NCBI GenBank assembly: GCA_000002445.1
Contig: CH464491.1
Span: forward strand, 2,368,001 to 2,432,000
From: Trypanosoma brucei
Taxonomy: Eukaryota
DNA length: 64,000 bases
Direction of reading: 5' to 3'
The notes under the pieces were generated by a model. That model worked only from the letters and a program-made list of their open reading frames with translations, ran no database searches and had not been told where the DNA came from. Positions 1,590 through 57,297 of the stretch are shown in pieces (position 1 is the stretch's first letter; each line of letters starts with the position of its first letter). The position numbers and the translations under genes were made by a program.

Positions 1590-2661
1590 TAGGGTAGTTA
1601 CGGGGCGTTGAAAGTGGCGCCGCGGTAGCGACATTCTCAGATAGGGCATATTTTGTGCTTTTTCCCTCCTGGTTGGACTCCTTTTATTTCCTTCTTGTTC
1701 TCCCTTACACAGCGGCAGAAATGAAGGATGTTGGAAGCAAGAATAAGTTGGAAGGGGAAAGTATGCACCCCATCTCCAACCAGCTGTATCAACTTTGCTT
1801 GAACAACCGTTCAGCTCGGCGCGAAGACGCGCTGGTGCTTCACGGTTAACTTGTCCCTTTTGTCTTCTTCGGAGGGGGGAAGGGACCCTTTTCAGTAGTG
1901 AATCCGAACAAACAACCCCGACGGGAGTAAATCCTTCTTTTTTACACCACTCCTTGCGCGTTTCCTTCTCATCTCGGTTTCGGTTGCGATCTTTTTGTCT
2001 CCTATACTGTGCGTTAAGAGTGTTTGTGGACTATTGGACCATATAGTGGGTTTGCGTCTTCCCCTCTTGCCCCATTCATGCGCATTCACGCTCTTGAATA
2101 CTTTATGGAAGCAGGAAAGGGAAAAGGTGAAATTATGACGGAACAGCGAGTGCCTGCCTGCGGGTGCACGCGCGTGGCGCCACCTCCACCACTGGATTGA
2201 GCCGCGACTTCCATCGATGGATTGCGCTACAGAGTTGATGGAAATGGAGCCATGCAGAGTACTGTAGCGTTGTGTGCCGCACCAAAATTGTGGAGCATGT
2301 CTTTGCTGCTCTACAACCTAAGTCTTGCGGAGCTTACTAGGCCCTTCCATCCATTGGCGTGTGCGTGTTGTGCTACAGTGCGTGTGGGATTGAGACAAGG
2401 TGTGCCGAATGATATGTTTTGCTTCCATTCTTTTGCTGTGCAATCGAGGAGTCATTCATGGCTGCGGACATTAACATCTGATGGTGATGGCGCTGCGATT
2501 ATTTCGGTTCCCCACATTTCGCTGATTTAATGTAAATAGTCGGCAAAGTGCACCCATCCAAATTTCTTTCACTCCAGTACCACTCTTTTTTTGTCGGTTC
2601 TTGTGCCGTTTGGTAGCATTCTTTTTTTAAAAAAAAGAGAGAAGGAAAGTGAGGGCAAGGG

Positions 2662-3711
2662 ATGACCTTACTCTCCCATGTAGTGGTTCTTTGTTCCCTC
2701 CTCTTCGTGCTGTCTGGTTGCGGGAGGGGGGTGCCTTTTTGTTACACGTATGAGCTAGACCGCAAGGTGAAACCGGTAGAAACTTGGACCGGACAAATGC
2801 TAACAATGGCGCAGCAAGCGCACGAGAGGGTGAAGGGAATGCGTCACTCAATTTCTTCCGTCGCCGCGGCTGTACACAAATACGCATGGATCGTCAAGAA
2901 CACAACAGAAGGGGATGCAATTTACGTAGACACCGCGACTCGACAACTGTCCAGAGCCTCGGATGCCCACGACCGGGTTGCAAACCTACAGAAGACAATA
3001 CAGGATCATCACAAAGAGGTGACGTACCTTTCTCGCAAGGCAATGGAAAGCTGTGACGAATGGGTTGTCACGCTGCACCGTCTCCGGAAGACGAGGGAAG
3101 AGAAGGACCGGACAGAACTGATGAAGAAACTTCAAACCCACGAGGCTGTAGCCAAAGAGAACATTGGCATCGCCAAGAAGGTGGCGTTACAGACAAAGCC
3201 ATTCGCGGAGCAGGTTGCGAGGAACGTCTCGACAGCGGAGAGTGCGCTCAGGTTCGCGCTAAATGTCTGGAAGAAGTTCACCTCCGTTCTTGGAGAGACA
3301 ATTGAGAAAAAGAAGGCTGAGGCCGAACGTAGAGCTCGCGAGGCAGCCGAACAAACGAACAGATCTGACAATGCCACTGATGAACCACAAGAGCAGACAG
3401 CAGATGCGGCAAACCGAACGGCCACCCTACCCGAAAAGGAGGGTTCGGCAGAGCAGAACGATGAGGAGGTGGAAGACGTGCAACAGATTCCAAAGATTGT
3501 TGACAGTTTGGATTTCAGGGACAATTTCAGTGAGGAGCGACCCACCACACAAGTGAGCACACCATCGTGGAGTGAGCAAGGGGATGAAACTGCGACGGAT
3601 ACCACACTTAAGACGAGGGCCCAATATTCCGAACTGGCTACACGGGGGTGCAGAGGGCTGTTCCATTTATCGGCTATTCTGTTCACCTATGCTCGCATTA
3701 CCGCTCCTTAA
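2662..3711 (+). CDS. Hypothetical secreted/coiled-coil protein (signal-peptide-like N-terminus, K/E/R-rich)
   Basis: 349-aa ORF in the same orientation as the upstream gene. Hydrophobic N-terminus MTLLSHVVVLCSLLFVLSGCG followed by charged heptad-like sequence. No recognisable catalytic motif. Confidence 0.4.
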   Translation: MTLLSHVVVLCSLLFVLSGCGRGVPFCYTYELDRKVKPVETWTGQMLTMAQQAHERVKGMRHSISSVAAAVHKYAWIVKNTTEGDAIYVDTATRQLSRASDAHDRVANLQKTIQDHHKEVTYLSRKAMESCDEWVVTLHRLRKTREEKDRTELMKKLQTHEAVAKENIGIAKKVALQTKPFAEQVARNVSTAESALRFALNVWKKFTSVLGETIEKKKAEAERRAREAAEQTNRSDNATDEPQEQTADAANRTATLPEKEGSAEQNDEEVEDVQQIPKIVDSLDFRDNFSEERPTTQVSTPSWSEQGDETATDTTLKTRAQYSELATRGCRGLFHLSAILFTYARITAP

Positions 3712-5800: not shown

Positions 5801-7384
5801 TATATACATTTTTTTTGCATTAAAGTTCCCAATAGTTCCCCAAACGACCTTCCAACGCCCGCCCAGCCACTCACTCGATCACGCGTGTGTAAATTTTGAC
5901 CCTCGATTCGGTTTCCTCTCATGCCCCCTTTTGGTTGTCGCAATTCACGTATTTTCGTCACGCCGCAATCCATATATACAAACTGTCCCTTGTGGCCCGT
6001 GATCCCCATTCCGCAAATACCGAGAGTGGCTCATGGCTTTCCAACGTTACACGCTCCCCTTTTCCGCAAAAGCATGAGGACCCGTAGACGACACCACCTC
6101 GTAAAGCGACTGCAGCCTGCCGCCGGGCTCGGGTACCCTCGTCCCGGTTGCGCGGGGTTTGGTTGTTTTCGCTTTCAAACCTTCCTGGAGCAAGGGCAAA
6201 TGGGGAGCTTGGTTCAGCCTCTTTTTCGCAGCGTCGACTGTCAGCCGCGGCCCTTTCAACGCCGATTTAGCTATTGCGTGTTTTCCACCGCCTCGACCGT
6301 ATGGCCTGTTCACGCTGGCTCTCCACACCATGGCAGCTCTGTTCCCACTTCTAACTCGATCTTAACTAATACAAAACCGCTACTTTCCTCAACGACAATC
6401 GCTAATGGAGTGCTGGGGTCTCGTGCGCCAAAGCTTATCGGGGAAGGAGGCTAACCCCCACCCGTGATCACGACGCGCAGCCACCTACGCCGCCAAAAGT
6501 CGCAACGCTGTCAAATGCCTTCGCTTGGCCCTCGAAAATGAGGAATTGTGGATTGAAGTTACTGCTGCCGCAGATGCTTGGGGCGGCCGAAGCCGCCATC
6601 GGCGTTGCGCGCGGTCGCCGTTTGCACGATAGCATATGCATACGATGTACATGAACTGCAACCCGCTTCGGATGTTTTACACCCGCGGCGGCGTCGCGAA
6701 ATGGCAACGCCTAAGTATGGGGTCCCCCTGGACACTTGTGTGATCCGCCGCACCCCTTACCGAAACTGGTAAGAGGAAGGGAAGCTAGCTATTGCGAATG
6801 GGCCGCAGCGGCAGCGAGCAGCCGACCTCAGAACCAAAGGAAGTGCGCTTTAGACGGATAATCGGTGCTGTTTCTTACCGAAAGGGTGAACGGATGCGCG
6901 GTGGAGGAAGGGGGAAACTGCCAAAGAGGGCTTGTGCCACCGCAAAAACGAGTGCGTACGCGACGGGAATGGTAGACAGAGATTACGAAAGCGGGGGCAT
7001 GCCCGGCGATTGTCAAATGAGAGCGAAACACCGAGTAGCGGTGAACGGGGGCCCGTCAGCACTGACTTGTTTGCAGCCGTGACCGGTTGCCAAAATTGAG
7101 CGTTACGCAGAACATTTTTTTTTTGGAATTTTCTTCGTGCCTTCGTGGGAGTTTCCCCCAACTGGCGCGGCCATCAGCCATCACCGTAGAGCCCTGAGAT
7201 GCTATCGGTCTGGCGACTGTGGCAGAGTCTCCCTTTTTTATTCAGCCTAACACACCCTCTATAATTTTTGTTGTAGCTCCGCAGTTGAACGGAATACAGC
7301 AGATGGGGCGAGAAGCCCCCACCCCAGACTCTCCAAAAGATGTCAATTAGCAATCCTTTTGTTTTGATTTTTGTTATTCGTTTA

Positions 7385-9565
7385 TTATTCTCTCATCCTT
7401 TTTCTGTTTCTGTTGCTTGTTGACTGCATACCCCCTCTGTCTCTGAGGGTGTCTGGACTATTCCTGCGTCCGGTGCTTTTCCTGCTAGCTCCACACCCGG
7501 CAATAAGGGGGGAAGTTGCAGAAGGGAGAGTGGGTTGTATGACTGTTACCTTAGGTGAGGACTTCACCTGCGGCCGGCTCCGTTCAACCGCAATGAGAAA
7601 TTGCGCCAGCCTTTTGGAGAAGCATATATCCTGCACACACTCACCTTCTACCGCAAACCTGACACGTAACTCCTCCAAACCGGGACAGCTCATCAAGTGC
7701 AACGACGTTTCTTCGCAGTCGCCGCGTTGGCTGGTAACAGCGCGCTCTACCTTCATACCGTGCATCTTCTTTTGATGTAGGGTGAGGCCAGTTTTGCTAG
7801 CACACTGCCTTCCGCATGTCGGGCACACCAACATGGATGTGTTTGTATGCGGGGAATCAGTGGCACACAATTTTGTGCTTTTGCTGCATTTAAGCTCGAC
7901 TCCCTCACCTTTGTGGAAAGCCTTACAGTGTCGGATGAGGGAGTCCCTGCAACTGAGCACTTTTTGGCACACACCACACTGCACCTCACCTTTCCCCGGG
8001 ACGTCAACGTTTCCCTCACGGGCACGCTTACGAGGGAATTGCACCACCACCACGGTACCGTCCTCCGTCACTATGCTTTTATGTTTGAATTTCTTGTGTA
8101 GTGACAGGGAAGAACGTGTACCGAAGCTCGCCTCGCGCAGGTCACATTGAAACGGCAGCTTCCGTGTATCCTTAGGGGCTGGCACTGCTGGGGCTCTACC
8201 ATCTCCTTGCAATGAGTCTTCGTTCTCTCGCCCCCTTTTCACGCGGCAACTACCGCTGCCTATGCCATGTATTGTTCTAAGGTGGTGTAATAGTCGGCCT
8301 GGCACTGCGAATTTGGAGGCACAGATGGTACAATGAAGAACCTGTGGTCTCATTGGGACTCGTGTGCTCGATGGTAAAGGAACGATCGCCACCACTGGAG
8401 GGGGCTCCGGGGGGATGTCCACTGCAGGTGTTGCATCGCCGTATTTGATCCTCCGGAGGGCATCAGCTCGCACAAAGCCGTGTTTGTTTACCATGTGCGT
8501 TACAGCACTCGAGCGGCATTGGTATGTGGCATCACATTCCGTACATTTGGTCGGTTCGAAGGTTCTCTGAAGAGTGCGTGTCGCAACAGGTGTGGTTGTT
8601 TGTGTTTGTATTGTTGGCCCTATTGCTGCATGTTGCGGGTTGCACCATCGGAACTGTGGAGGCACACTCGGGTTGATTTTTCGCAACATCCATCCATAGT
8701 ATCTTGAAGACCCAACACGAAAGCGTGCCAGTGCCGTTTCTTCTTTCCTCGTCAGTTCTTCTTTATGTTTTGTTGGAAAGTGGTTGCCCGTGATACCAAA
8801 CCTATGAGTGTTCTCATGGACTTCTTCCGANNNNNNNNNNNNNNNNNNNNNNNNNNNNNNNNNNNNNNNNNNNNNNNNNNNNNNNNNNNNNNNNNNNNNN
8901 NNNNNNNNNNNNNNNNNNNNNNNNNNNNNNAACATGATTGGGCCAAGGACAGTTCCTTGTGGCACTCCTCGCTCAAATGTTCTGCTTCTGGAGAGCTTCT
9001 CCTTGAATCTCACTCTGCCAGTTCGGTTACTCAGAAATGATACGCACCACTTCACAATGTGGGGTGATACCTTCATTCTGTGCATTTCCCTCGCAATTTT
9101 GTCGTGGTCTACTGTATCAAATGCCTTCTCGTAGTCAACGAATACAGCACCCGTACGATATTGGTGCGTGGGACGGCAGAGGGCAGCGCGGACGTGCAGG
9201 AGTTGTTCGAGCGTTGAGCATCCGGGGCGAAAGCCTGATTGCTGCGGCGTCAGCTGGGACTCAACAGTGTCTCTAAGTCTCGCGGCAATTATGCGCTCCA
9301 TGACTTTGCAGAGACAGCTCGTGAGCGTCACAGGCCTGTAAGAATCGAGGTCCTCCGCCTTTTTTCCGGCCTTCAGGATGGGGATGATAACACCAGTCTT
9401 CCATGCAGGCGGCACGACTCCCGTTCGTAGGCTCTCATTGAATAGCCTCAGCACAACATTCAGCGCTGTTCTGCCGAGATGTTGCAGTGCCTCGTTGTAT
9501 AAGCAATCAGGTCCGGCTGCGGATCCACTCGGTAGCAGTTTGATCGATCTCCGTAGTTCAGCCAT
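7385..9565 (-). CDS. ingi ORF, reverse-transcriptase region and C-terminal C2H2 zinc-finger region (interrupted by N gap)
   Basis: 726-aa ORF including X residues. RT motifs are present (GFRPGCST, VFVDYEKAFDTVDHD, GVPQGTVLGP). After the gap come Cys/His-rich C2H2-like segments (CTECDATYQCRSSAVTHMVNKHG, CTICASKF...HHLRTIHG, CGVCQKV...HCKAFH). The ORF is contiguous only because Ns translate as X. Confidence 0.8.
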   Translation of the reverse strand: MAELRRSIKLLPSGSAAGPDCLYNEALQHLGRTALNVVLRLFNESLRTGVVPPAWKTGVIIPILKAGKKAEDLDSYRPVTLTSCLCKVMERIIAARLRDTVESQLTPQQSGFRPGCSTLEQLLHVRAALCRPTHQYRTGAVFVDYEKAFDTVDHDKIAREMHRMKVSPHIVKWCVSFLSNRTGRVRFKEKLSRSRTFERGVPQGTVLGPIMXXXXXXXXXXXXXXXXXXXXXXXXXXXXXXXXXXSEEVHENTHRFGITGNHFPTKHKEELTRKEETALARFRVGSSRYYGWMLRKINPSVPPQFRWCNPQHAAIGPTIQTQTTTPVATRTLQRTFEPTKCTECDATYQCRSSAVTHMVNKHGFVRADALRRIKYGDATPAVDIPPEPPPVVAIVPLPSSTRVPMRPQVLHCTICASKFAVPGRLLHHLRTIHGIGSGSCRVKRGRENEDSLQGDGRAPAVPAPKDTRKLPFQCDLREASFGTRSSLSLHKKFKHKSIVTEDGTVVVVQFPRKRAREGNVDVPGKGEVQCGVCQKVLSCRDSLIRHCKAFHKGEGVELKCSKSTKLCATDSPHTNTSMLVCPTCGRQCASKTGLTLHQKKMHGMKVERAVTSQRGDCEETSLHLMSCPGLEELRVRFAVEGECVQDICFSKRLAQFLIAVERSRPQVKSSPKVTVIQPTLPSATSPLIAGCGASRKSTGRRNSPDTLRDRGGMQSTSNRNRKRMRE
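8831..8930. other. Assembly/scaffold gap (100 N) inside the ingi element
   Basis: Run of 100 n characters. The flanking ORF lacks the distal RT and RNase H portion, consistent with ~1.2-1.3 kb of missing sequence. Confidence 0.95.
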
Positions 9566-9643
9566 CGTGATGGGACTGAACTCACTCGCTATCGTCTTTA
9601 TGGGTGCCGGTGGGTGTGAGTCGGGGTGCCTTCTTGCGCGGGA

Positions 9644-10828
9644 CTAGTACAGTTTAATGAACCTCTCAGCTTGACGGTAGTCCGTGATGGCCGCGTTATC
9701 AACAAGTACAGCCTGTGTGGTTAGTGGTCGTGGCGCATATACCTTCTTGACAATGTGCCAACTGCAGCGGTCTGACACCGCAAGTCTGGAGCATAGCGTG
9801 CTCCATCTCTTCTTTGTGGTATGGTCCAGGATCTGCTTACGCGTGGCTACCAACTTTTCCCTTCGGTGGGAGGGTCCGCATCCAGCGATCTCTTCATCGA
9901 GTTTCGCGAGCTCAGGTGTCCAATGTGGTGGCGTTGCTCTGCAGCCACGGGGGACGGAGACCTTCGTCGCAATGCGGATGGCGGAGCTCAATTTCTGTTC
10001 CATGGTGTTGACGTTCTTCTCTCTAACAATTTTCCTGCAGAGCTCGTCAACCTTGAGACGGAAATTCCTCCAGTCAGCTTTTAGCCATGCGTACATGGGC
10101 TTTCGAAGCCGCGGGCAACTCAGTGCATCTGTGCCGTCTCCAACGATAACGTCGAAAAATATGTGATGGTGATCGCTATCGGGAGAATACAGCGATGTCC
10201 ACGTGTACACTGTGCAATTCCTTGACAGTGTCACATCAGGGGTGGACTCCCCGTGGTGGCGCGCGTACCTGGTGCACTCACCAGTGTTGCAGACCAGAAA
10301 CTGGTTGTCAATGCACCACTGTGTGAGGGTTTCACCCTTGGTATTTGGTGGGCTCGCGCGATCCCATGCCAACGCGTGTGCGTTAGCGTCTGCACCGATG
10401 AGCTGGGCACCGTCAGTCATCAGAAGCGTATCTAGGTCAGTTGCCGTGAAGGTGTGTTTTGGTGGGATGTATGCCGACGTGACAGTCAGCGCTGTTCCAC
10501 GTGCAAGGTGAATTGTTGCATGCACTTGTTCAATGCGACCAACAACGGTCATACCGGTCTCGACTGGCAGGTCCTCCCTCACTAGTATTGATACACCACC
10601 TCCTTTGCAGTTACGAGCTATTCCGTGATGTTGGTAGCCAGCAACGCTAAAGCAAGCCGCCTCTCCAGGCGTCATCCTTGTCTCGCTCAACAGACAAAAG
10701 GCGATCCGCTCATCAACAAGGGTTTTGTGGAGTGCTAATCTCTTTCCTTGAGATAGCCCGGCGCAGTTCCACTGCATCCCGCGCAACGACGGGCCGGGAT
10801 TCTCTTCCACATCACCGGACAGCAGCAT
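9644..10828 (-). CDS. ingi ORF, N-terminal part: 2A-like peptide followed by apurinic/apyrimidinic-type endonuclease domain
   Basis: 394-aa ORF beginning MLLSGDVEENPGP, the 2A-like motif known at the N-terminus of trypanosome L1Tc/ingi. Endonuclease-like residues follow (LSETRMT..., SPDSDHHHI). Directly continues upstream of the RT ORF on the same strand. Confidence 0.8.
   Translation of the reverse strand: MLLSGDVEENPGPSLRGMQWNCAGLSQGKRLALHKTLVDERIAFCLLSETRMTPGEAACFSVAGYQHHGIARNCKGGGVSILVREDLPVETGMTVVGRIEQVHATIHLARGTALTVTSAYIPPKHTFTATDLDTLLMTDGAQLIGADANAHALAWDRASPPNTKGETLTQWCIDNQFLVCNTGECTRYARHHGESTPDVTLSRNCTVYTWTSLYSPDSDHHHIFFDVIVGDGTDALSCPRLRKPMYAWLKADWRNFRLKVDELCRKIVREKNVNTMEQKLSSAIRIATKVSVPRGCRATPPHWTPELAKLDEEIAGCGPSHRREKLVATRKQILDHTTKKRWSTLCSRLAVSDRCSWHIVKKVYAPRPLTTQAVLVDNAAITDYRQAERFIKLY
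10790..10813 (-). other. 2A-like self-processing peptide motif DVEENPGP at the N-terminus of the ingi polyprotein
   Basis: Residues 6-13 of the 9644..10828 minus-strand ORF read D-V-E-E-N-P-G-P, matching the D(V/I)ExNPGP 2A consensus. Confidence 0.7.
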
Positions 10829-12321
10829 CTTAGTGCGGGTGATACTGCTGATGGCACGCTAGCCACGTGCCCAGGGACCGACAAATGAAAAACGGTGTCA
10901 CAGCAAGACGCTGCTGATCCCTGTGCTGTATGATGCCGTAGCCGGAGCACAGCAGTGTTCCCCATGAAAGGAACGCTGCTGGCTCTTGGCTTCCCCCGAT
11001 GATACGGGGTACTGGACCCTGACACCACGTTGATGTGGCCGGCATCGCCAGGGTTCAAAACATTTTTTCCCAACCTAATGAAGGCTAGTCTTTTCGCTAG
11101 GCTCCTGCGTTGATTTGCCTTACTTTCACGGACTCTCTGTTCCGGCACCCATTGTTGTGGCAGCATGTCGCCCCTATTAGGGATTGTATTTGATGTCAAC
11201 GGGCGAACAACAGATGTAATGCCCTCGTTGGAGTCTTCAAGTGCCGTCCACTCCACCTTTCCCCTATTTACGGGGCTTAATTGCGCGTTCCTTTCAGTAA
11301 TTTGGGCCAACCAGCCCCCTTTTCTGAGGAAGTAAAAGGTTGTGGAGTTTTGAAGTACATTATCCTTTTCATATCGCGCCCCACTGCTACATTGGAGGTG
11401 ATCCAACTGTGGTAGCTGTTACGGTTCCGCACCACATTCTGAACGATCACCTCACAACGCCAGAAATAGGTAACGTTTGTGTGAAACAGCCTGTCTCCCA
11501 GTGTTGTGTGTCACATTAGGTCTTCACTGCCGGTGACCATTAAACTCTTCTCCAGTTGCCAAATTTAATATCAGCTTCTCTCACTCTCTTCCTTTGGGGC
11601 GCGCGAGTTCCGGCAGCAGGGCGACAATTCGAATCCGCTCAAAATAGCCGTGGACCTTTATTTCTCCCAGTAACTCCGACCTTCCCGTGCTCACGTTAGA
11701 GTTGTCGGGGAAAGGGAAATATGTCACAGCATGCTGTTCACTACTTTCAGGCACCATTGCAACAGTGACGCTTCCCAAATCTGTGTTTGTTCTCAGACTC
11801 GTAGCTACACCACTCCAAAACGAACGTGTGTTGACGCCCTGGTGCTTTTCTCTCTAAAATGGGCAAGCCCCGTGTGTTTGCAACCATAGGAGGTGAATGG
11901 CGCGGTTCCCATAATCTTTGCGATCACCTCCTGCGTGACGGAAAGGTCCAGCGCGCCCTCGCAGAGCATTGCCGGGAGGGTCACACGTTTCCGCCTGAGA
12001 GGTGTCCCTCCGTTTCGTTAAGCTCCGATGATGGGAGCGGGAACTGGGTTCTGCTTGGTATCCCCGCTGAGGGACAAGATAACCCCGTCAACAGAGCATA
12101 AAAGTGTGCACTTTCGCCGGCATTAGGCAGTGCTTAAAGTGGGCACCTTCCCGTGGTGCTCGACTGTTGCCGCACCTAGTTGCTCTGGTTGGCTGATGTC
12201 AGGTGCCACCGCTGTGCCAATGCTCGAAGGGGGGCCTTGTTCCTTACCTTGGAGGCCGACAGCCCCTGATACCACGATGGGACGACCGGTGTTCCCACGG
12301 TTGGTGTTGATGTTCTGCGTA

Positions 12322-12564
12322 CCCTAGCAATGCCGGCCACATCAACGTGGTGTCAGAGTCCGGTACCCCGTATCATCGGGGGAAGCCAAGAGCCAGCAGC
12401 GTTCCTTTCATGGGGAACACTGCTGTGCTCCGGCTACGGCATCAAAAAGCACAGGGATCAGCAGCGTCTTGCTGTGACACCGTTTTTCATTTGTCGGTCC
12501 CTGGGCACGTGGCAGCGTGCCATCAGCAGTATCACCCGCACTAAGATGCTGCTGTCCGGTGATG
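12322..12564 (+). mobile_element. Inverted 5'-terminal fragment of ingi/RIME (first ~240 bp only)
   Basis: CCCTAGCAATGCCGGCCACATCAACGTGGTGTCAGAGTCC... is ~93% identical to the 5' end of the minus-strand element (ORF-track pair MPATSTWCQGPVPRIIGG.../MPATSTWCQSPVPRIIGG...). Similarity stops right after ATGCTGCTGTCCGGTGATG. No RIME 3' half or poly(A) follows. Confidence 0.8.
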
Positions 12565-14526
12565 ATGTTTCGAATGATGTATTTTTAGGGTGTCGAGGGG
12601 GAATGCTGCCAAATCATCCGTCACTGAAGGGCGAAACTGGATTTGACCGAGGGTGAGTCCACCGCCTGCTCGTCATCTATCATTGCTCAGGCAAGAAGTG
12701 AGTGCACGGTGACGAAAAAATGATAGACACAAGTTGTTTGTAGATACGTATACGTAGCATTCTACAAAGAATCCAACAATTCCACCAACGAATGTTGCCA
12801 TCACTGAATACTGTCCGTTTAAGCCCATTTTCAACGCGGTTACAATAAAGAGTCCCTCGGAGAGGCTTTTGTTGTACTAGAGAAAGGGGGGAGAACGAAA
12901 TTTAATTCGTGTAGTTGCAGCAGTGGCGGAGGTTGGTAAGGGTTTCTCGTCTCGATTTTGAACCGCTGCTGCCGTAAGTAGGGATTTCCTGACTAGCGGC
13001 AATCAGGATAGTCATTCCGGTCTTCTGGTGGAAAAACTTTATTAAGGATTATGGCGCTTTTTGCTCTTCAGGGTGCCGTCTGCTCTAAGAGCCACAAGGA
13101 AGAGGGAGAAAACGCGTGGCGGAGGAAGAGGCACGGGGTTTACGAGGCTTTGGGGAGACTTCGACCCCTAGTGAGCGGCAACGCGGTACACCCTTGGCCC
13201 TCCCCGTCCTACGTCCATCACCCACAGTGACCCGGCTCCTAGGGCGTGTCACCGCTGCCTGATAGCTCGAGTAGTGGCTGCTAAACGCTTGCGGTGCCGG
13301 GAAGTGCGGTCTTTGATGTGACGCCTGCCGGAGGCAGGGCTTTTTACACAGCTTGCCTAACGAAGGTCGTGATTTGGTGGTCGCTGTAAATCGTCGATTG
13401 ACGTGGTCGTTTTGTGGCAATTCAGTCTGCCGGGGGCGGTTGGTGCTACCGCCGCAGATGTAGGAGGTGCCCTACCTGGTGCTCTCGGTAGTGCCTTCGC
13501 TTCTCCTCAGTCGTTTTTTTTTGGACTGTGGTCCGACGGAGGAGAGATATGGGGCTCGTATGTGCCAAACCAAGGGTGGGGATTGGATCCAAACCGACTG
13601 CCAGCGCTTCACTCACGGGGAGTTGGTTGGGCTCTCCGGGGTGGTCCCGCACCACCCACATGGGAAATGAGACGAGGGAGATATGACAGCAACTTGCTCA
13701 CCTGGCGTTCACGGCGCGGTGCCCGCTGCGATCTACGTTCTTTTATTTTTTGTTGGGGAGGAGTTCAGTGTCTCGTTCCTTTCCTCAGCTGCTATGGCAA
13801 AAATTGTGGTTCGTGTGTGGAGTACCAAGGGTGCCGCAAACAACAAGCAACTGCGCTCCCGTAGCAACTGTCCGTGATTTTTGTCTTCCATCAGGGGATG
13901 TTGTGGAGTTCTCTAATACCGCGTTGTTCTGGCACAGCTTACCCGCTTGTCTTTGGCTATGTCCGGCACCACCGAGTTTCTGCTGCTTCCACTCATATCT
14001 AATACTAGTTTTGTATATTTGTTATAGAGAGGGGGGGGGCGCCGTGATGTTAAGGCATGGCATCTGCCCTCGGTTTTACGGGCCTTCATCCAAAATTTGC
14101 GCCGTTATTTCATCTGCTTTCTGAGCTAACCCGACCTAAGTGTCATTTCTATGTCTTATGAAGGTGGGTAAGCCGCGTATACACTAAACTTCTGTGGTCT
14201 GTGGAGCGCCACGTTCGTGGCGTTATATGATAAAGGCGTGGTTAAAGAATCTAAAGTTGTCAGTGCATCCCGTTGTTGGTCTGTTCTGTGCAAGTCGTGG
14301 TGAATACGATTAATTTCTGTCTGTGAAGGGTTCATTATATTTGTGCCGCTTTGATGGTTACTTTATCCTTTATGGTATTTGCATTCTGATGATAAACCCT
14401 ATTTTGTTGTTGGGAGGAATCATTAGCTTTGTGTAACGCTAAATCTGTTAGCATATAAACGATTTTTCGTTGTCTGCGGCAGATAAGGCCTCACACAAAG
14501 AAAGTGTGCAAGGTTAGTGAAATTCA

Positions 14527-15573
14527 ATGGCCTTTTCTGCACTAGCCGCTGTTTTTTTCACCGGTTTCTGTGTTCTGTTCGCCACTATATTAGCTTTTTC
14601 TCCGCGACAGACCCATGATAGGAAGAAGGTGCTGGCGCGGTTGAGAGCTAAATTCCCCTACTCTGTCAGTAAGATCGCTCACAGAGGGGGGAGTATATTG
14701 GGACCGGAAAATACTTTGTATGCTTTCCACAGGGCAGTGAAGGAGGGCGCGGCGGACATGCTGGAGTTAGATGTTCGCGAAACCATGGACTATCGTATTG
14801 TGGTTTGCCATGACGAGTGGCTGGAAAGACTTTGTGGGAGTGCGTACAAGCACGTGACTGTAAAAGACATCACGGTTGGCGACGATCCCAACACCAATCT
14901 CCCCCAACTGCAAAGGAATATACCTCTCCATTTTGTGTCTAGTGAGAAAACCATGTACTGTGCCACAGATTCCGTACCAGTGGACGGCACCACTCGCTTG
15001 TGCTTGCTGGAAGAAGTATTCGAAGCATTTCCTACTATCCCAATTCACATTGATATTAAATATGCGAGTTCAGATTTCACTGATCGGATATTCGATTTGA
15101 TTAAGAAATATGGACGCGAACCGGTTACATTCGTTGGCAGTAGCAACTGGAGGAATGAAATATATATTACAAGGCATATGAAAAGACTTTCTTCACAGAA
15201 GGACAAGTGTAAATTTCACACCTTCGCCGGTCCCATAGACTACGTGCTTGTGCACGTTGCTCACTATATTGGCGTGCTGCCGCTGATCCCCTTGAACTTT
15301 GATATTTTTTCTGTTCCCTTATTTACGAAACGAAAGAAACAAGAAATTCCATTTTTCTTGCGGCCGATAGCACAGCTTTTAAATTCCCCGTCCCTGTGGA
15401 TGCACTTGCAGCAGCGGGGTATTCTTGTTGTCGGTTGGGTGCTAAACGACGTCGATGAGTTCGAGGAGGCTTCTAGATGGCCAATAAATGGTGTAATGAC
15501 CGATGATCCAATATCATTCAACGGTTTCCTAATATCACACGACGTTTCTAATACGATGAATTTGCTGAACTGA
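14527..15573 (+). CDS. Glycerophosphodiester phosphodiesterase (GDPD/GP-PDE family) with N-terminal membrane anchor
   Basis: 348 aa. HRGG...GPENTLYAFHRAVKEGAADMLELDVRETMDYRIVVCHDEWL matches the GP-PDE catalytic signature (HR(G)x, E-N-T, E-x-D-V, HD). Hydrophobic N-terminus. Confidence 0.8.
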   Translation: MAFSALAAVFFTGFCVLFATILAFSPRQTHDRKKVLARLRAKFPYSVSKIAHRGGSILGPENTLYAFHRAVKEGAADMLELDVRETMDYRIVVCHDEWLERLCGSAYKHVTVKDITVGDDPNTNLPQLQRNIPLHFVSSEKTMYCATDSVPVDGTTRLCLLEEVFEAFPTIPIHIDIKYASSDFTDRIFDLIKKYGREPVTFVGSSNWRNEIYITRHMKRLSSQKDKCKFHTFAGPIDYVLVHVAHYIGVLPLIPLNFDIFSVPLFTKRKKQEIPFFLRPIAQLLNSPSLWMHLQQRGILVVGWVLNDVDEFEEASRWPINGVMTDDPISFNGFLISHDVSNTMNLLN

Positions 15574-45366: not shown

Positions 45367-46551
45367 GTGGGTAAAATGCTTGGAGCGAACCTTGGGATTA
45401 ACTTTCACACTGATGACGATCATGGTGATCATGGTGATCACGAGGGCCATGAGGGGCACGACATGGGGGGTTGCGCTCCAGCCGCAGGGTCGTACTCGAT
45501 GGGGCTTCACATTGCAGCCATTTTTATTCTCCTGATCGCGTCATTCCTTGGGACAGTTCTTCCCATTGCCGGGAACTATGTGCCACGATTCAAGCTGCCG
45601 CCGTTTCTTATTGTTGTTTCGAAGTGTATTTCCACAGGTGTTGTTATGTCAGTTGCCGTGTTAACACTGCTCAATCACAGCTTACACAGCTTCATGGAGA
45701 AGTGTATCCCACACGGGCTGAGTATGGAAGTGTACAGCGCTTTCGGCTTGCTGTTTATGCTGATCTCGGCTTTACTGATGCATTCATTCGACTCTGCCAT
45801 GGACCTCCTTCTTGAGGGTTGGGCGGTTCGTAAGGAAGAGGAGAAATTAGCCGACGGCGCACCGCAAGTGGCTGATAGTGTGCCGACGGCGGCGGCTCTT
45901 CCACCAACTCAATGCGGAATGAAGCGTTGCACGGCTCAACCAGGAGTATCATGTGAAACTAACGGCTGCTGCCAATCATCTCCGGGACCTGCGTACGGTG
46001 CTACCGGGTGCTGTGGAAGCCGTGGTGAAGCCGCTGCGCTGCTTACCGGTGCGCGGCGTGTTATGGCCCTAGCCTTAATGGAATTCGGTTTGGTGGTGCA
46101 CAGTATTTTTCTCGGTCTTTCCGTAGGTATTGCATCCGACTCGCGCACCAAAGTGCTGCTTGTGGCTCTTTCCTTCCATCAATTTTTTGAAGGCCTGGCT
46201 TTAGGGGCGCGGTTGGCGGAGGCGTCGCTGAAAGCCAAGTTGGAGTTATTTTTGGCCATCCTCTTTTCCATTTCTGTTCCTGTTGGTACGGCTATCGGTG
46301 CCGTTACCATGAGGGATGGCGGCAAAAGCATTACCGGCTCCAGTTACGTCACTATGAGCGCCATTGTCAATGCCATTGGTGCTGGTATTCTGCTTTACAT
46401 CGGTTTTGTCCTGCTTCTCGTTGATTTCCCAACGGATCTGCGCATATACGCGGGTGTCGGGACGCCGAATCGCTTTGTGAGACGCATTGCAATGTTTGTG
46501 GCCCTTTGGGTTGGCTTCGGTGTGATGGCGCTGCTGTCCAAGTGGCACTAG
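45367..46551 (+). CDS. ZIP-family (Zrt/Irt-like) divalent metal transporter, diverged paralogue with Cys-rich cytosolic loop
   Basis: 394 aa. Eight-TM ZIP layout with signature HSIFLGLSVG (TM4) and HQFFEGLALGARL (TM5). N-terminal His/Asp tract (HTDDDHGDHGDHEGHEGHD). The TM3-TM4 loop has CGMKRCTAQPGVSCETNGCCQSSPGPAYGATGCCGS. About 55-60% identical to the downstream array copies. Confidence 0.85.
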   Translation: MGKMLGANLGINFHTDDDHGDHGDHEGHEGHDMGGCAPAAGSYSMGLHIAAIFILLIASFLGTVLPIAGNYVPRFKLPPFLIVVSKCISTGVVMSVAVLTLLNHSLHSFMEKCIPHGLSMEVYSAFGLLFMLISALLMHSFDSAMDLLLEGWAVRKEEEKLADGAPQVADSVPTAAALPPTQCGMKRCTAQPGVSCETNGCCQSSPGPAYGATGCCGSRGEAAALLTGARRVMALALMEFGLVVHSIFLGLSVGIASDSRTKVLLVALSFHQFFEGLALGARLAEASLKAKLELFLAILFSISVPVGTAIGAVTMRDGGKSITGSSYVTMSAIVNAIGAGILLYIGFVLLLVDFPTDLRIYAGVGTPNRFVRRIAMFVALWVGFGVMALLSKWH

Positions 46552-48337
46552 GTAACGTAACTTTTTATTTACATTAATTTTTTTTCTTCACTCCCCCTAA
46601 CTTTGAGGAGTTGAATATGTTCGCACGTGGGTTAACACGTAACAAATAGTATCGCACGGAAAATGAACTCTTTACCGCGTGAGAGGCGTGTCGTGCTGAA
46701 GCGGACGCATCAGAGAAGAGGAGTAAATAAGCGAGGGATTGAGGGATGTTATGCTCACACGCTGTGTTCTGAGAGGTGGGGGAGAAGGTACTGAATTGGC
46801 ACTAAAATAGCGACGATGCGAAACAAGTAAGAAAATGAATAAGCAAAAGTTTTATGGGCAACGATTTTGAGAAAAAAAAATCAATTGCACAAATAGGCGG
46901 TAACCTCTTTATAGCTCTATCTTTTGAAACCCTATTCGCTAGTTTAGCGTTGCGGGGAAGCCGTCGTACTGATCCTAATCTCCTCACTTCCCTTCCTTCC
47001 CCTTCTATTTGTTTTTATTTACAAAATGATGGAAAGCGGGATGATTTGTTGTTCCTGGTGTGTATTCCTTTTTATTACTTATAATGATATGTTCATCATT
47101 GCTGTTATTAATTCGTTTTTGGTGTCTTATGCTATTTTTACATTTAGGGACTCTCATTTTATTTTTATTTTTTTCGAAGGTGTGTGAGTAACAACACATA
47201 CACAACTCGAGGGACTGAAGCATATCGGCGGGTATTGTATCAAGAAAAATTTTAAATTATTAACAAGCACAACACATCAGTGATGGGTCAAATGCAACGA
47301 AATCAGCGTGAAGGGTGAAATAAATAAATGAATCAAGACCTGAAGAAAACGAAATAGAAAGAGAACAGAAAAGGCAACGAATAAAATGGTGGAATGGAGA
47401 GTGAAAGTAACTTTTACAGAAAGGGAGAAGGGGAAAAGAAGAGATTAATAAAATAGGAAAATGTCGGAGGGAATCGAAGTGGCAGCACCTGAAAGAGACA
47501 GTTTAATATTAGCAGGGAAATCATTACTCATCCAATTCGCAACTCATATTCACGTGGTGAAGTGAGGCCGCGGCTTTGTTGCTATTTCTCTTACTCTTTG
47601 TGTACGTGTGTGTTTATTTTCTACGGCGTCGTTACCGGGGTTAATATCCAAAAGAAGGACTTAGTTTAACGTCATTCTAACAGATAAGTGTAATATTTGG
47701 GAGGAGACATTCTCGTATGTATTTTTGTTTTCCCCCCTTTTTGGCGTTATTTGGTGTCCGCTTGTTGGAGATTTATGTTCCTCATACATTTTTTTTTTTC
47801 AAAAAAAGCCTCAACTTGATAAATGCTCGTCCACGTGTGCCCTCCTTTGCCTTGCCTTATTTTTAACATATCTTTTTCAGTTATTCTTTGAGGTAATCTT
47901 CACAAAGTGGCACAGCAACAAAAAAAGATATATATGTATATATATCTAGCAACTGCATGATAATATTTGACATTGAAAGGTTTCAACCATCCTCAAGAGT
48001 ATATCTTCATACTTTTCCTTCACCCTTAATAAAAATCTCTCACATCCCGCTCCCCCCCGTTCCAAGGAAGAAAAAATTACACAAACACAGACACATTTCT
48101 TCACACAGCACCTACAGTCAAATAATAACAGAGCGGGGAGCTTCTAAGCAAAAGGTCCGACCAAGAAACAACCACAAAAAAAAAGGATTAAGAAATCGAA
48201 AAAATTGAAAAACATATAACTATACGACCAATTTAAAAAAAATAATAATAATTAAATTATGTAATAATAATAAAAATATATAACAACGATTCAGAAATAA
48301 AGAAAAAATATATAAAAAGCAACCAAAAACCAGGCGG

Positions 48338-48525
48338 TCGCCAGTGCTGTGTGTGGTGGGATGCTGCTGTACCTTGCTTTCTGCCTCATGTTGAGTGACT
48401 TCCCATCGGATATGCAGAAACATGCTGGGAAGGATAAGGTAAGGCGTTTCTTCAGATGCTTTGGGATGTTTGCGGCTCTTTGGCTTGGCGCTGCGTTGAT
48501 GGCCGTGTTAGGAAAATGGGTCTAA
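48338..48525 (+). pseudogene. Truncated 3' fragment (~62 codons) of a ZIP transporter gene marking the start of the tandem array
   Basis: caggcggtcgccagtgctgtgtgtggtgggatgctgctgtacc...tgggtctaa is identical to the 3' end of the copy at 49613..50797. It is fused upstream to unrelated AT-rich sequence and followed by the same 1087-bp intergenic unit. Confidence 0.8.
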
Positions 48526-49440
48526 GCACCCACTGTTCATGTGTGTGCCAATGGATTGCCCACTTCATTTTCTGTTTTCCTCGTACTCTTTTTCCAGCCC
48601 CCTTTTTCAGTTGTAATGATGCTCCCGCACGTGTGTTGCGTGGTCCGGTGAGCCATTGTGCCCTACCTGTTGCATGCGTTAGAGTTGTTCTTGAGGTGTG
48701 CTTGTGCATGTACATACATATATGTATATGTATATATACGTGTGTGTGTTTCTTGAGCTAGCGCCGAGTTGGGAGTGAGAGGAGTTGTGCTCTTCGTGTG
48801 TGCGTAGGTTTGAGCGTATGCGGACTGAGTGTCGGATGTTTAGCGGTGCGAAGCATAAGCAATTGCTCACGTGTTTGTATGCGTGTGTGTTGCGTACATG
48901 TTTCCAAACATCTACCCTGCCTTCAGGAGGGACCTGCACGAGTACATACATGAGCATATGTGCTGTGTTTACGCTTGTCCTTGATTTAGTTACAATATAC
49001 AACTGCGTACATCTACATTTTACTACTTTATGTTCGTTTGTTCATTTATTAGTATTTTTAAATAGCAATGCCCACCATCCTCGTAGTTACTCTACCGTGC
49101 TGGTGCGGGGGACGAAGCTGCAGACGCGTGGTGTACGAATATATGCATGCGTATGGATGTGTGTGCATGTGTTTCTGTGTGCGTCAATGCGCGTTTGAGT
49201 GTCTGCCTGCGCGTATATTTAAATAGTGATTTAGCGGATATCTGACTGTAGAGGGTACGACGGACGGGCTTATTTTCCACATGAGACTATTTCTTCCCCT
49301 GCTTTCTTTCTGTGCTGGTGCTGGTGCTGGTGTGTGTCTGTGTGTGCGCAGTTGTGGATGGGATGGTGGCAAATGTATCGCATTGCTGCTGTTCCCATCC
49401 CTTAGTGCCCCATTGTTTCTGCACGCTCTCGCTAAGCATT

Positions 49441-49520
49441 CCTTCTTACCCTTTTTGCCCATTGATTCTTTTTCTATGTTTGCCGTCCCTTTTTCACCTT
49501 TTTCTTTTTGGTGTGTGTAG
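49441..49520 (+). promoter_or_regulatory. Polypyrimidine tract plus downstream AG: candidate spliced-leader trans-splicing acceptor region for ZIP copy 1 (repeated before each array copy)
   Basis: ccttcttaccctttttgcccattgattctttttctatgtttgccgtccctttttcacctttttctttttgg then gtgtgtgtAG, ~95 nt upstream of the ATG. The same block recurs at 51713-51792, 53776-53860 and 55813-55897. Function inferred from kinetoplastid mRNA-processing rules, not shown by the sequence. Confidence 0.4.
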
Positions 49521-49612
49521 ATACCATAAAGTGACAGTCAGGTTTCGGTTGGTGCTGCCTTAGCTAATCTCAGCAAAAACACACTTCCTCTTTTTGTGAT
49601 ACAGTCAGAGCG

Positions 49613-50797
49613 ATGGCTAACGTTAATAACGAGACCACCGAATGTGGTGCATTGCTTTCGAATATCACTTCCCTACAGACGACGCTAACGTCTATGGGAT
49701 GCCAAGTGCCCGCCTTGCATCATCACACGCATGACCACGGCCACCATCACCATCATCATCATCATGACGATCACACCCACGGAGCGGACGACCACGAAGG
49801 TCACGGGCACAGTCACGGCGGGTGCGAAAGTGGTCATGGCACGTATTCCATTGGACTGCATGTTGTGGCGATCTTTGTTGTGTTGATTGCGTCGTTTCTG
49901 GGCACGCTGATACCGATAATCGGAAAGTACGTGCCGGCACTGCGGCTTCCTCCGTTTGTGTTTGTCCTTGGCAAGTGCATTGCAGCTGGAGTGCTACTGT
50001 CAGTGTCGACTATCCACATGATTAATGAAGCTGTAGCGCAGCTACAGGAAGATTGTGTTCCGGAGTCGTTTCGCGAATCATATGAGGCATATGCATTTCT
50101 GTTTGCTGTGGCTGGAGCGTTGCTGTTGCACATGGTGGACGTCATTGTTGACGCACGTGTGACAAACAAGAGCGATTCCAGCACCAACAAACCTGAGGGT
50201 CAACCCGATGCCGAAGAAGCTCAAGCGGCCCCGGCTGCTCTTGATGCGTACGATGGTCATCACTGCCACTACGCTGTCGGCATGCCACAGTCGAGGACCA
50301 GACGCCTCGTCTCTGCAATGTTTATGGAGTTTGCGGTAACTGTGCACAGTGTGTTCATTGGGCTGGCAGTCGGTATCGCAAGGGATGCGGAGACTAAAAC
50401 TTTACTTGTGGCTCTGGCATTTCATCAGATGTTGGAGGGCCTTGCTCTGGGCGCGCGTCTGGTGGATGCAGAGTTGAGCTTGAAGCTTGAAATGCTGTTT
50501 GCACTACTCTTCTCTGTCTCTGCGCCCCTGGGCACCGCAATTGCCGTTGGCACGATTGCGATTTGGAATGTGTCGATGGTAGGAACCGCGTTCGTGATTA
50601 CACAGGCGGTCGCCAGTGCTGTGTGTGGTGGGATGCTGCTGTACCTTGCTTTCTGCCTCATGTTGAGTGACTTCCCATCGGATATGCAGAAACATGCTGG
50701 GAAGGATAAGGTAAGGCGTTTCTTCAGATGCTTTGGGATGTTTGCGGCTCTTTGGCTTGGCGCTGCGTTGATGGCCGTGTTAGGAAAATGGGTCTAA
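49613..50797 (+). CDS. ZIP-family metal transporter, array copy 1 (type A, long His tract)
   Basis: 394 aa. N-terminal HHHTHDHGHHHHHHHHDDHTHGADDHEGHGHSHGG. TM4 HSVFIGLAVG, TM5 HQMLEGLALGARL. TM3-TM4 loop with DGHHCHY. Confidence 0.9.
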   Translation: MANVNNETTECGALLSNITSLQTTLTSMGCQVPALHHHTHDHGHHHHHHHHDDHTHGADDHEGHGHSHGGCESGHGTYSIGLHVVAIFVVLIASFLGTLIPIIGKYVPALRLPPFVFVLGKCIAAGVLLSVSTIHMINEAVAQLQEDCVPESFRESYEAYAFLFAVAGALLLHMVDVIVDARVTNKSDSSTNKPEGQPDAEEAQAAPAALDAYDGHHCHYAVGMPQSRTRRLVSAMFMEFAVTVHSVFIGLAVGIARDAETKTLLVALAFHQMLEGLALGARLVDAELSLKLEMLFALLFSVSAPLGTAIAVGTIAIWNVSMVGTAFVITQAVASAVCGGMLLYLAFCLMLSDFPSDMQKHAGKDKVRRFFRCFGMFAALWLGAALMAVLGKWV

Positions 50798-51884
50798 GCA
50801 CCCACTGTTCATGTGTGTGCCAATGGATTGCCCACTTCATTTTCTGTTTTCCTCGTACTCTTTTTCCAGCCCCCTTTTTCAGTTGTAATGATGCTCCCGC
50901 ACGTGTGTTGCGTGGTCCGGTGAGCCATTGTGCCCTACCTGTTGCATGCGTTAGAGTTGTTCTTGAGGTGTGCTTGTGCATGTACATACATATATGTATA
51001 TGTATATATACGTGTGTGTGTTTCTTGAGCTAGCGCCGAGTTGGGAGTGAGAGGAGTTGTGCTCTTCGTGTGTGCGTAGGTTTGAGCGTATGCGGACTGA
51101 GTGTCGGATGTTTAGCGGTGCGAAGCATAAGCAATTGCTCACGTGTTTGTATGCGTGTGTGTTGCGTACATGTTTCCAAACATCTACCCTGCCTTCAGGA
51201 GGGACCTGCACGAGTACATACATGAGCATATGTGCTGTGTTTACGCTTGTCCTTGATTTAGTTACAATATACAACTGCGTACATCTACATTTTACTACTT
51301 TATGTTCGTTTGTTCATTTATTAGTATTTTTAAATAGCAATGCCCACCATCCTCGTAGTTACTCTACCGTGCTGGTGCGGGGGACGAAGCTGCAGACGCG
51401 TGGTGTACGAATATATGCATGCGTATGGATGTGTGTGCATGTGTTTCTGTGTGCGTCAATGCGCGTTTGAGTGTCTGCCTGCGCGTATATTTAAATAGTG
51501 ATTTAGCGGATATCTGACTGTAGAGGGTACGACGGACGGGCTTATTTTCCACATGAGACTATTTCTTCCCCTGCTTTCTTTCTGTGCTGGTGCTGGTGCT
51601 GGTGTGTGTCTGTGTGTGCGCAGTTGTGGATGGGATGGTGGCAAATGTATCGCATTGCTGCTGTTCCCATCCCTTAGTGCCCCATTGTTTCTGCACGCTC
51701 TCGCTAAGCATTCCTTCTTACCCTTTTTGCCCATTGATTCTTTTTCTATGTTTGTCGTCCCTTTTTCACCTTTTTCTTTTTGGTGTGTGTAGATACCATA
51801 AAGTGACAGTCAGGTTTCGGTTGGTGCTGCCTTAGCTAATCTCAGCAAAAACACACTTCCTCTTTTTGTGATACAGTCAGAGCG

Positions 51885-57155: not shown

Positions 57156-57297
57156 ATCTAAATTGTTTTGTGAATTTGTGTATATTTTAAATTCCTGTTT
57201 TTTTCTTTGTCTTTTTCTTTGTCTTTTTCTATGTTGCTTTTTTTTTTTGTTTTTCTTTTTTGTTTTTTTTTTAATGTTAGGTTTTTTATTGTCCACT

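What the first reader, a model, noticed from the sequence alone, without database searches (positions are those of the whole stretch)
7104..12330. Head-to-head ingi copies where the full element's 3' flank 12-mer reappears at the inverted fragment's 5' flank: possible recombination-mediated inversion footprint
- The full-length minus-strand ingi ends in poly(A) followed by ATGTTCTGCGTA (rc of 7104-7115).
- The same 12-mer, ATGTTCTGCGTA, lies on the + strand at 12310-12321, immediately 5' of the inverted ingi 5' fragment (12322-12564).
- The full element's own 5' flank reads AAATGTTTTGAA instead.
- An inversion of the ~1.27 kb between the two inverted 5' regions would produce exactly this swap of flanks. 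Before inversion the full element would have had a perfect 12-bp target-site duplication.
- ingi normally makes ~12-bp TSDs.
- The alternative is that both flanks merely reflect the known insertion-site preference of the ingi endonuclease; both contain ATGTT-TG.
Basis: partly seen in the sequence, partly recalled or inferred. Interest (0 to 1): 0.6.

Follow-up and report, generated by a model that had tools for sequence, protein, structure and literature searches.

The report
Small ingi-bounded inversion in TREU927
A 1.27-kb stretch of non-coding DNA between two facing copies of a trypanosome jumping gene lies one way round in this reference genome and the other way round in three related strains, which is an ordinary repeat-mediated flip (or possibly an assembly error) and not a new kind of biology.

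Summary
ATGTTCTGCGTA occurs exactly twice in the window: after the poly(A) of the long minus-strand ingi (7104-7115) and just 5' of the inverted ingi fragment (12310-12321).

The window is T. b. brucei TREU927 chromosome 11. In T. b. gambiense DAL972 and T. equiperdum IVM-t1, and less securely in OVI, the 1,268-bp segment 11054-12321 lies in the opposite orientation. There the 12-mer abuts the 5' end of a gap-free 5.25-kb ingi and forms an 11/12 target-site duplication.

Site preference cannot explain the match, because unrelated ingi copies have quite different 12-mers.

Two caveats apply:
- The "full-length" element in the window contains a 100-N scaffold gap hiding about 1.4 kb.
- Its interior is consensus-like and lacks 49 of 54 alleles specific to this locus in the other strains. 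This points to either whole-element gene conversion or a collapsed-repeat assembly.

A TREU927 assembly error therefore remains a live rival (about 0.28). The best reading (about 0.65) is a real, recent inversion by homologous recombination between the 245-bp inverted ingi 5' arms. This is a known kind of event of modest interest.

The parts
7104..7115 (-). 3' copy of the target-site duplication of ingi A (ATGTTCTGCGTA in element orientation)
   Evidence: Identical in OVI (L007). ATGTTCTGCATA in DAL972 and IVM-t1.
7116..11053 (-). ingi element A (poly(A) = T9 at 7116-7124; 5' end CCCTGGCGATG at 11053), interrupted by a scaffold gap
   Evidence: APE endonuclease and RT domains. 95-97 % identity to other ingi copies. 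The orthologous site in DAL972 and IVM-t1 holds a 5,256/5,247-bp element.
8831..8930 (.). 100-N assembly gap inside element A, hiding about 1.42 kb
10810..11053 (-). Inverted-repeat arm on the ingi body (ingi nt 1-244); carries B-lineage markers at nt 5, 8, 190-193 and 215
   Evidence: Its first 57 nt are identical to the OVI arm that lies next to the right flank.
11054..12321 (.). 1,268-bp non-coding segment S, inverted relative to DAL972, IVM-t1 and OVI (includes both 12-mers at its ends)
   Evidence: 98.4-98.6 % identity as reverse complement, 33 % as forward. No annotated gene in the other assemblies. No Rfam hit.
11054..11065 (-). AAATGTTTTGAA: present 5' flank of A, ancestral 5' flank of fragment B
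   Evidence: It lies next to B in DAL972, IVM-t1 and OVI.
11066..11076 (-). AGGTTGGGAAA, target-type motif upstream of B's ancestral insertion site
12299..12309 (+). GGTTGGTGTTG, target-type motif immediately upstream of A's original target site
   Evidence: GGTTGG is also present upstream of an unrelated copy (L015).
12310..12321 (+). 5' copy of A's target-site duplication, displaced to the B side by the inversion
12322..12564 (+). Fragment B: ingi nt 1-244 only (no 3' half, no poly(A)); in TREU927 its inner part carries A-lineage markers (nt 5, 8 = A,A; nt 190/193)
12565..12574 (+). ATGTTTCGAA, candidate degenerate 3' TSD of B (9/10 to ATGTTTTGAA)
   Evidence: Read directly from the sequence; not tested statistically beyond a simple estimate.

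Best explanation
Shown: two retroposon insertions predate the split of these Trypanozoon strains. One is a truncated 244-bp ingi 5' fragment (B, plus strand). The other is a full ingi (A, minus strand), inserted 1.24 kb away at GGTTGGTGTTG|ATGTTCTGCGTA with a 12-bp target-site duplication. Their 5' ends face each other and form 245-bp inverted repeats. Inferred: in the lineage of TREU927, homologous recombination (a crossover) between these arms flipped the 1,268-bp segment between them. A's 5' TSD copy, together with the innermost part of A's arm, was carried to the B side, and B's 5' flank was carried to A. Arm markers place the exchange distal to nt 193 of the 245-nt homology, with some accompanying gene conversion (nt 154, nt 215). 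The flip is balanced, lies in intergenic DNA inside a plus-strand polycistronic unit, and has no predicted effect on genes.
For: The two exact 12-mers lie at the predicted junctions. The window is TREU927 chr 11. The opposite orientation of S is seen in DAL972, IVM-t1 and OVI over its full length with no gain or loss (1,268 vs 1,269/1,267 bp). In that orientation A has an 11/12 TSD and B a 9/10 flank match. The A,A alleles at arm nt 5 and 8, absent from B arms and from three unrelated copies, sit next to the 12-mer in every genome, so in TREU927 they are on the B side; nt 190/193 behave the same way. The OVI arm next to the right flank is identical (57/57) to the TREU927 arm on the ingi body. 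nt 154 T is private to TREU927 but present on both arms, which implies arm-to-arm conversion. DAL972 and IVM-t1 were only ordered on TREU927 yet disagree with it inside gap-free sequence, so their orientation was not imposed by the reference. The 12-bp TSD is the published rule for Tbingi (PMC3820030), and ingi/RIME recombination causing rearrangements is recognised (PMC2854126).
Against: Only one assembly shows the inverted state, and that assembly has a scaffold gap 1.9 kb from the arm. The interior of its ingi is consensus-like and lacks 49 of 54 locus-specific alleles, as expected from a collapsed repeat. The arm markers are not cleanly reciprocal: nt 215 is B-type on both arms, and nt 90/109/116 are A-type on both. 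OVI is nearly identical to TREU927 in unique DNA yet is not inverted, so the event would have to be very recent; OVI's orientation also rests on a Velvet scaffold across an N gap. No raw reads could be examined.
Confidence: 0.65

Rival explanations
1. Assembly artefact. The TREU927 parasite has the same arrangement as DAL972, and the shotgun assembly joined S to the wrong arms while building a poorly resolved ingi next to a gap.
For: There is a 100-N gap inside the element. The TREU927 ingi interior is consensus-like (1.1 % from the majority of other copies vs 2.5-2.8 % for real copies; private alleles 0.5 % vs 1.7 %) and is no closer to its positional orthologs than to copies on other chromosomes. 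The apparent switch points lie in the last 51-nt stretch identical between the arms. Jackson et al. note that such rearrangements in repeats are hard to resolve in assemblies (PMC2854126).
Against: The arms are only 245 bp with 7 differences. Capillary reads (my recollection of how TREU927 chr 11 was sequenced) should span an entire arm together with unique DNA on both sides, and two reciprocal wrong joins would be needed within one contig. The locus-specific alleles are missing even within about 200-500 bp of the unique 3' flank, which fits a real sequence difference as well as a collapse.
Confidence: 0.28
2. No inversion. The two identical 12-mers reflect the target preference of the ingi endonuclease.
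For: Both flanks contain ATGTT and are preceded by GGTTGG-type motifs. The ingi clade has a relative site specificity (PMC3820030).
Against: Unrelated copies have 12-mers matching at 1, 2 and 6 of 12, and one has a perfect unrelated TSD. The recurring motif lies upstream of the duplicated 12-mer, not inside it. The whole 1,268-bp segment is physically reversed in other strains.
Confidence: 0.01
3. Reverse polarity or flip-flop. The TREU927 orientation is old, and the segment has flipped more than once or in the other lineages.
For: Strain-specific alleles shared by both arms (nt 20, nt 154) show that the arms interact repeatedly. OVI and TREU927 differ in orientation although their unique DNA is nearly identical.
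Against: Both elements have matching flanks only in the DAL972-type orientation, so that was the state when each inserted. Only four assemblies are available.
Confidence: 0.04
4. The ingi in TREU927 is an independent, younger insertion at the same hot site, followed by inversion.
For: The element interior is consensus-like and more intact, and the 12/12 TSD is perfect in TREU927 compared with 11/12 elsewhere.
Against: The rare arm alleles nt 5, 8, 190 and 193 next to the 12-mer are shared with DAL972 and IVM-t1. OVI also has the perfect 3' 12-mer. No empty allele is seen.
Confidence: 0.02

Closest known systems
Inversions by non-allelic homologous recombination between inverted transposable-element copies (for example L1/Alu in humans, Ty in yeast, IS elements in bacteria; from established knowledge)
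   Same: There are two inverted homologous arms at the breakpoints. The flip is balanced, with no sequence gained or lost. Flanks and target-site duplications are swapped, and both orientations occur among related genomes.
   Different: It is very small (1.27 kb), the arms are short (245 bp, 97 %), one arm is a solo 5' fragment, and the organism is a kinetoplastid.
ingi/RIME-associated rearrangements between T. b. brucei 927 and T. b. gambiense DAL972 (Jackson et al. 2010, PMC2854126)
   Same: It involves the same element family and the same pair of genomes, and the paper states that ingi and RIME recombine and cause rearrangements.
   Different: That paper names 55- and 110-kb inversions on chromosome 10 and ingi/RIME indels on chromosomes 9 and 11. 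This 1.27-kb chr 11 inversion is not mentioned in the passages returned by a term search of that paper; the paper was not read in full.
Large inverted-repeat siRNA loci of T. brucei (Tschudi et al. 2012, PMC3447711)
   Same: It is an inverted repeat with a spacer inside a Pol II unit, and ingi sequence is a major siRNA source.
   Different: The published loci have arms of 422-10,011 bp at 99-100 % identity, and the chr 11 locus is at 4.22 Mb. This locus is not among them, and no small-RNA data were examined.

Membership tests
Tbingi non-LTR retrotransposon (element A) | Conserved 5' terminal signature shared by ingi-clade elements | tested here: met
   The first 245 nt align with three unrelated full-length ingi copies and with the orthologous copies.
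Tbingi non-LTR retrotransposon (element A) | ORF with APE-type endonuclease and reverse transcriptase | tested here: met
   Pfam Exo_endo_phos_2 (8.8e-13) and RVT_1 (1.9e-28). The ORF is broken at 9565-9644 and by the gap.
Tbingi non-LTR retrotransposon (element A) | 3' poly(A) and 12-bp target-site duplication | tested here: met
   Poly(A) is present. The TSD is 11/12 around the orthologous copy in DAL972 and IVM-t1. In the window as assembled the two flanks match only 5/12 and become 12/12 once S is reversed.
Tbingi non-LTR retrotransposon (element A) | Length about 5.25 kb | tested here: inconclusive
   The window holds 3,838 bases plus a 100-N gap. The orthologous copies are 5,256 and 5,247 bp.
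Tbingi non-LTR retrotransposon (element A) | Conserved motif upstream of the TSD (endonuclease site) | tested here: inconclusive
   GGTTGG lies 5 nt upstream of the 12-mer at three of five sites. The published consensus (Bringaud 2004) could not be retrieved.
Inversion by homologous recombination between inverted repeats | Inverted homologous arms exactly at both breakpoints | tested here: met
   245 bp at 97.1 %. The flanks swap exactly at nt 1 of each arm.
Inversion by homologous recombination between inverted repeats | Both orientations exist in related genomes, with no gain or loss | tested here: met
   (assemblies only).
Inversion by homologous recombination between inverted repeats | Reciprocal exchange of arm markers around a single crossover point | tested here: inconclusive
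   nt 5, 8 and 190-193 are swapped. nt 215 and nt 90/109/116 are the same on both arms. Gene conversion and lineage-specific SNPs blur the map.
Inversion by homologous recombination between inverted repeats | Inverted state physically present in TREU927 DNA | not testable with these tools
   No reads or second TREU927 assembly were available.
RIME (fragment B) | ingi 5' ~250 nt joined to ingi 3' ~250 nt with poly(A) | tested here: not met
   B stops at nt 244 and is followed by unique DNA. There is no match to the ingi 3' end and no A-run. B is therefore a solo 5' fragment, not a RIME.
Twin-priming type 5' inversion of a LINE insertion | Inverted 5' piece contiguous with the 3' piece, the whole flanked by direct TSDs | tested here: not met
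   1.24 kb of host DNA that is present in all strains separates the pieces, and the two 12-mers are in inverted orientation, not direct.

The most novel reading that the evidence does not exclude
The segment is a recurrently flipping, possibly heterozygous, invertible region. In addition, the ingi at this orthologous site was replaced wholesale in TREU927 by a young consensus-like copy through ectopic gene conversion. This would mean that homologous recombination homogenises and rearranges dispersed ingi copies in T. brucei core chromosomes on the time scale of strain divergence.
Probability: 0.2. Interest if true: 0.45.

Novelty: new member of a known kind. Interest (0 to 1): 0.3.

Why it matters
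If real, this is a clean, base-pair-resolved example of a retroposon-mediated inversion polymorphism in the core of a T. brucei chromosome. It shows that displaced target-site duplications can reveal such events from a single genome. If it is an artefact, it flags a local error (orientation, gap and a consensus-like ingi) in the TREU927 reference, which is widely used as a template for other trypanosome assemblies. In either case no gene is affected, and the mechanism is the textbook one.

Tried and rejected
- Exact look-ups of the GDPD protein and a 126-aa ORF found no contigs. The collection holds only three other Trypanozoon assemblies for this locus plus very short Logan contigs, so Lister 427 and T. 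evansi could not be checked.
- Rfam found nothing in 6500-14600.
- The locus is not one of the seven published large inverted-repeat siRNA loci.
- The Bringaud 2004 and 2009 papers with the Tbingi target consensus are not held, and searches for reports of this inversion or of TREU927 misassemblies found nothing relevant.
- Locating a single crossover point failed because the arms are mosaics.
- OVI was downgraded as evidence. It is a Velvet k=33 assembly, has an N gap inside the arm, and has a probably chimeric join at window 12244.
- Site preference, twin priming and RIME identity for fragment B were considered and rejected (see the membership tests).
- Looking for junction-spanning ORFs in short-read Logan contigs was judged pointless, because the 82-nt and 63-nt stretches identical between the arms and shared with other ingi copies would break k=31 contigs.
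Full report
**1. Observation**

- The 12-mer ATGTTCTGCGTA lies on the minus strand at 7104-7115, directly after the T9 run (7116-7124) that is the poly(A) of a minus-strand ingi.
- It also lies on the plus strand at 12310-12321, directly before CCCTAGCAATG..., the first bases of a plus-strand ingi 5' fragment (12322-12564).
- These are the only exact copies in the window. Dinucleotide shuffles expect 0.01.
- The long element's 5' end is at 11053 and its flank reads AAATGTTTTGAA in element orientation.
- The facing 5' regions (10810-11054 and 12321-12564) are 97.1 % identical over 245 bp.

A run of 100 N at 8831-8930 lies inside the reverse-transcriptase ORF of the "full-length" element. About 1.42 kb is hidden, and the two ends of the element are on different contigs.

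**2. Source and context**

- The flanking genes are housekeeping genes on the plus strand: CHAP-domain protein, ESP2, GDPD, UPF0220, CEP76, a DEAD-box helicase and a ZIP transporter array.
- The GDPD protein is identical only to EAN79837.1/XP_828949.1 of T. b. brucei TREU927, on a 5.26-Mb record. The window is therefore TREU927 chromosome 11.
- The segment between the arms has no annotated gene in other assemblies and no Rfam match.

**3. Comparison with other strains**

Exact-protein look-ups fetched the syntenic locus from three assemblies:
- T. b. gambiense DAL972 (FN554974.1).
- T. equiperdum IVM-t1 (CM010682.1). Its identity is confirmed by the QSBY01 record name and the genome announcement.
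- T. equiperdum OVI (CZPT02 contigs).

Results:
- In all three, window 11054-12321 aligns only as its reverse complement. Over the full 1,268 bp the identity is 98.4 % (DAL972) and 98.6 % (IVM-t1), the same as the unique flanks (98.9 %). The forward alignment is meaningless at 33 %. Lengths are 1,268, 1,269 and 1,267 bp, so nothing was gained or lost.
- In DAL972 and IVM-t1 the long ingi is gap-free (5,256 and 5,247 bp). Its 5' end is preceded by ATGTTCTGCGTA and its poly(A) is followed by ATGTTCTGCATA, an 11/12 direct duplication differing by one CpG-to-TpG change.
- OVI, like TREU927, has the perfect 12-mer at the 3' side.
- In that orientation the short fragment B is preceded by AAATGTTTTGAA and followed by ATGTTTCGAA (9/10), which may be its own decayed duplication.

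The DAL972-type orientation is therefore the one in which both elements inserted, and the TREU927 arrangement is derived.

**4. Site preference**

- Three unrelated full-length ingi copies from IVM-t1 have 5' 12-mers TTTAGTAATAGC, TTCTCACAATGC and TTGTTGTTTCCA. They match the 12-mer at 1, 2 and 6 positions.
- One of them has its own perfect 12-bp duplication.
- What recurs is a GGTTGG-type motif in the 11 nt upstream of the duplicated 12-mer. It is seen at A's site, B's site and L015.
- This agrees with my recollection of Bringaud et al. 2004, that a conserved 11-mer precedes a 12-mer direct repeat. I could not retrieve that paper.
- The 12-bp TSD rule itself is stated in PMC3820030.
- Site preference therefore cannot give a 12/12 match and cannot explain a physically reversed segment.

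**5. Arms**

- The alleles A,A at arm nt 5 and 8 occur only on the arm next to ATGTTCTGCGTA. They are absent from every B-lineage arm and from the three unrelated copies. In TREU927 they sit on the B side, and the nt 190/193 markers behave the same way.
- The OVI arm next to the right flank is identical over its 57 assembled nt to the TREU927 arm on the ingi body, but differs at 4 positions from the other TREU927 arm.
- These markers place the exchange distal to nt 193.
- The picture is not cleanly reciprocal. nt 215 is B-type on both TREU927 arms. nt 154 T is private to TREU927 yet present on both arms. nt 20 is strain-specific on both arms.
- I read this as gene conversion accompanying or following the exchange. 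It cannot be distinguished from a switch of reads in an assembly.

**6. A complication**

- TREU927's ingi interior differs from its positional orthologs by 2.8 % (5' part) and 4.6 % (3' part). That is the same as from copies on other chromosomes (2.7-3.1 % and 4.7-5.0 %). DAL972 and IVM-t1 differ from each other by only 1.1-1.3 %.
- It is consensus-like: 1.1 % from the majority of other copies versus 2.5-2.8 % for real copies.
- It shares only 5 of 54 locus-specific alleles, and these are scattered along the element, including near the unique 3' flank.
- Either the element was overwritten by ectopic gene conversion from a young copy, or the reference sequence here is a collapsed consensus of many ingi copies next to an unresolved gap.
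- Conversion patches do exist between the two gap-free assemblies. One example is DAL972 arm nt 99-150, which is partly shared with the L016 copy. Conversion is therefore plausible.
- The finding still lowers trust in the local TREU927 assembly.

**7. Weight of the comparison assemblies**

- DAL972 is an independent capillary assembly whose contigs were only ordered on TREU927.
- IVM-t1 is a MiSeq plus low-coverage PacBio hybrid, also only ordered on TREU927.
- Both disagree with TREU927 inside gap-free sequence and agree with each other in orientation and in 54 locus-specific ingi alleles. Their arrangement is solid.
- OVI is a Velvet k=33 assembly with an N gap inside the arm and a probably chimeric join at window 12244. 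It counts only as weak support.

**8. Verdict**

- Most likely (0.65) the TREU927 lineage underwent a recent balanced inversion by homologous recombination between 245-bp inverted ingi 5' sequences.
- The main rival (0.28) is that the reference assembly, not the parasite, carries the flip.
- The event type is well known, and ingi/RIME recombination is already cited as a cause of rearrangements in T. brucei (PMC2854126).
- No gene is affected, so this is a new member of a known kind with modest interest.

Noticed in passing
window 8831-8930: A 100-N scaffold gap inside the RT ORF of the ingi hides about 1.42 kb (DAL972 element nt 2124-3544). The element's two ends are linked only by scaffolding.
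   Followed up: yes
window 7125-8830 and 8931-10809: The TREU927 ingi interior is consensus-like. It is no closer to the orthologous copies in DAL972 and IVM-t1 than to unrelated copies, and it shares only 5 of 54 locus-specific alleles. This means either whole-element gene conversion or a collapsed-repeat assembly.
   Followed up: partly
window 12322-12574 and 11054-11065: Fragment B is ingi nt 1-244 only, with no 3' half and no poly(A), and is truncated identically in DAL972 and IVM-t1. In the ancestral orientation it is flanked by ATGTTTTGAA and ATGTTTCGAA (9/10). This looks like a decayed TSD around a 3'-truncated piece, which ordinary target-primed reverse transcription does not explain.
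   Followed up: partly
window 12299-12309; 11066-11076 (minus); L015:2463-2473: A GGTTGG-type motif lies in the 11 nt upstream of the duplicated 12-mer at three of five ingi insertion sites. It is likely the endonuclease recognition site.
   Followed up: partly
L005:14400-14415; L006:14440-14455: DAL972 and IVM-t1 share a CpG-to-TpG change in the 3' TSD copy (ATGTTCTGCATA) that TREU927 and OVI lack. At this locus the two haplotype groups are DAL972/IVM-t1 and TREU927/OVI.
   Followed up: no
L001:4700-4800 (OVI contig CZPT02001628.1), equivalent to window 12244: The OVI contig joins the segment at window 12244 to unrelated minus-strand genes (DSPc phosphatase, PAP-associated). This is probably a short-read chimera, and the last 134 bp before the join are only 95.5 % identical.
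   Followed up: partly
L005 arm, ingi nt 99-150: The DAL972 arm of element A has a cluster of differences from IVM-t1, several of them shared with the unrelated copy L016 (104T, 117A, 120G). This looks like an ectopic gene-conversion patch.
   Followed up: partly
window 45367-61375: There is a tandem array of seven similar ORFs of 381-397 aa on the plus strand. The one tested (49613-50797) is a ZIP zinc transporter.
   Followed up: no
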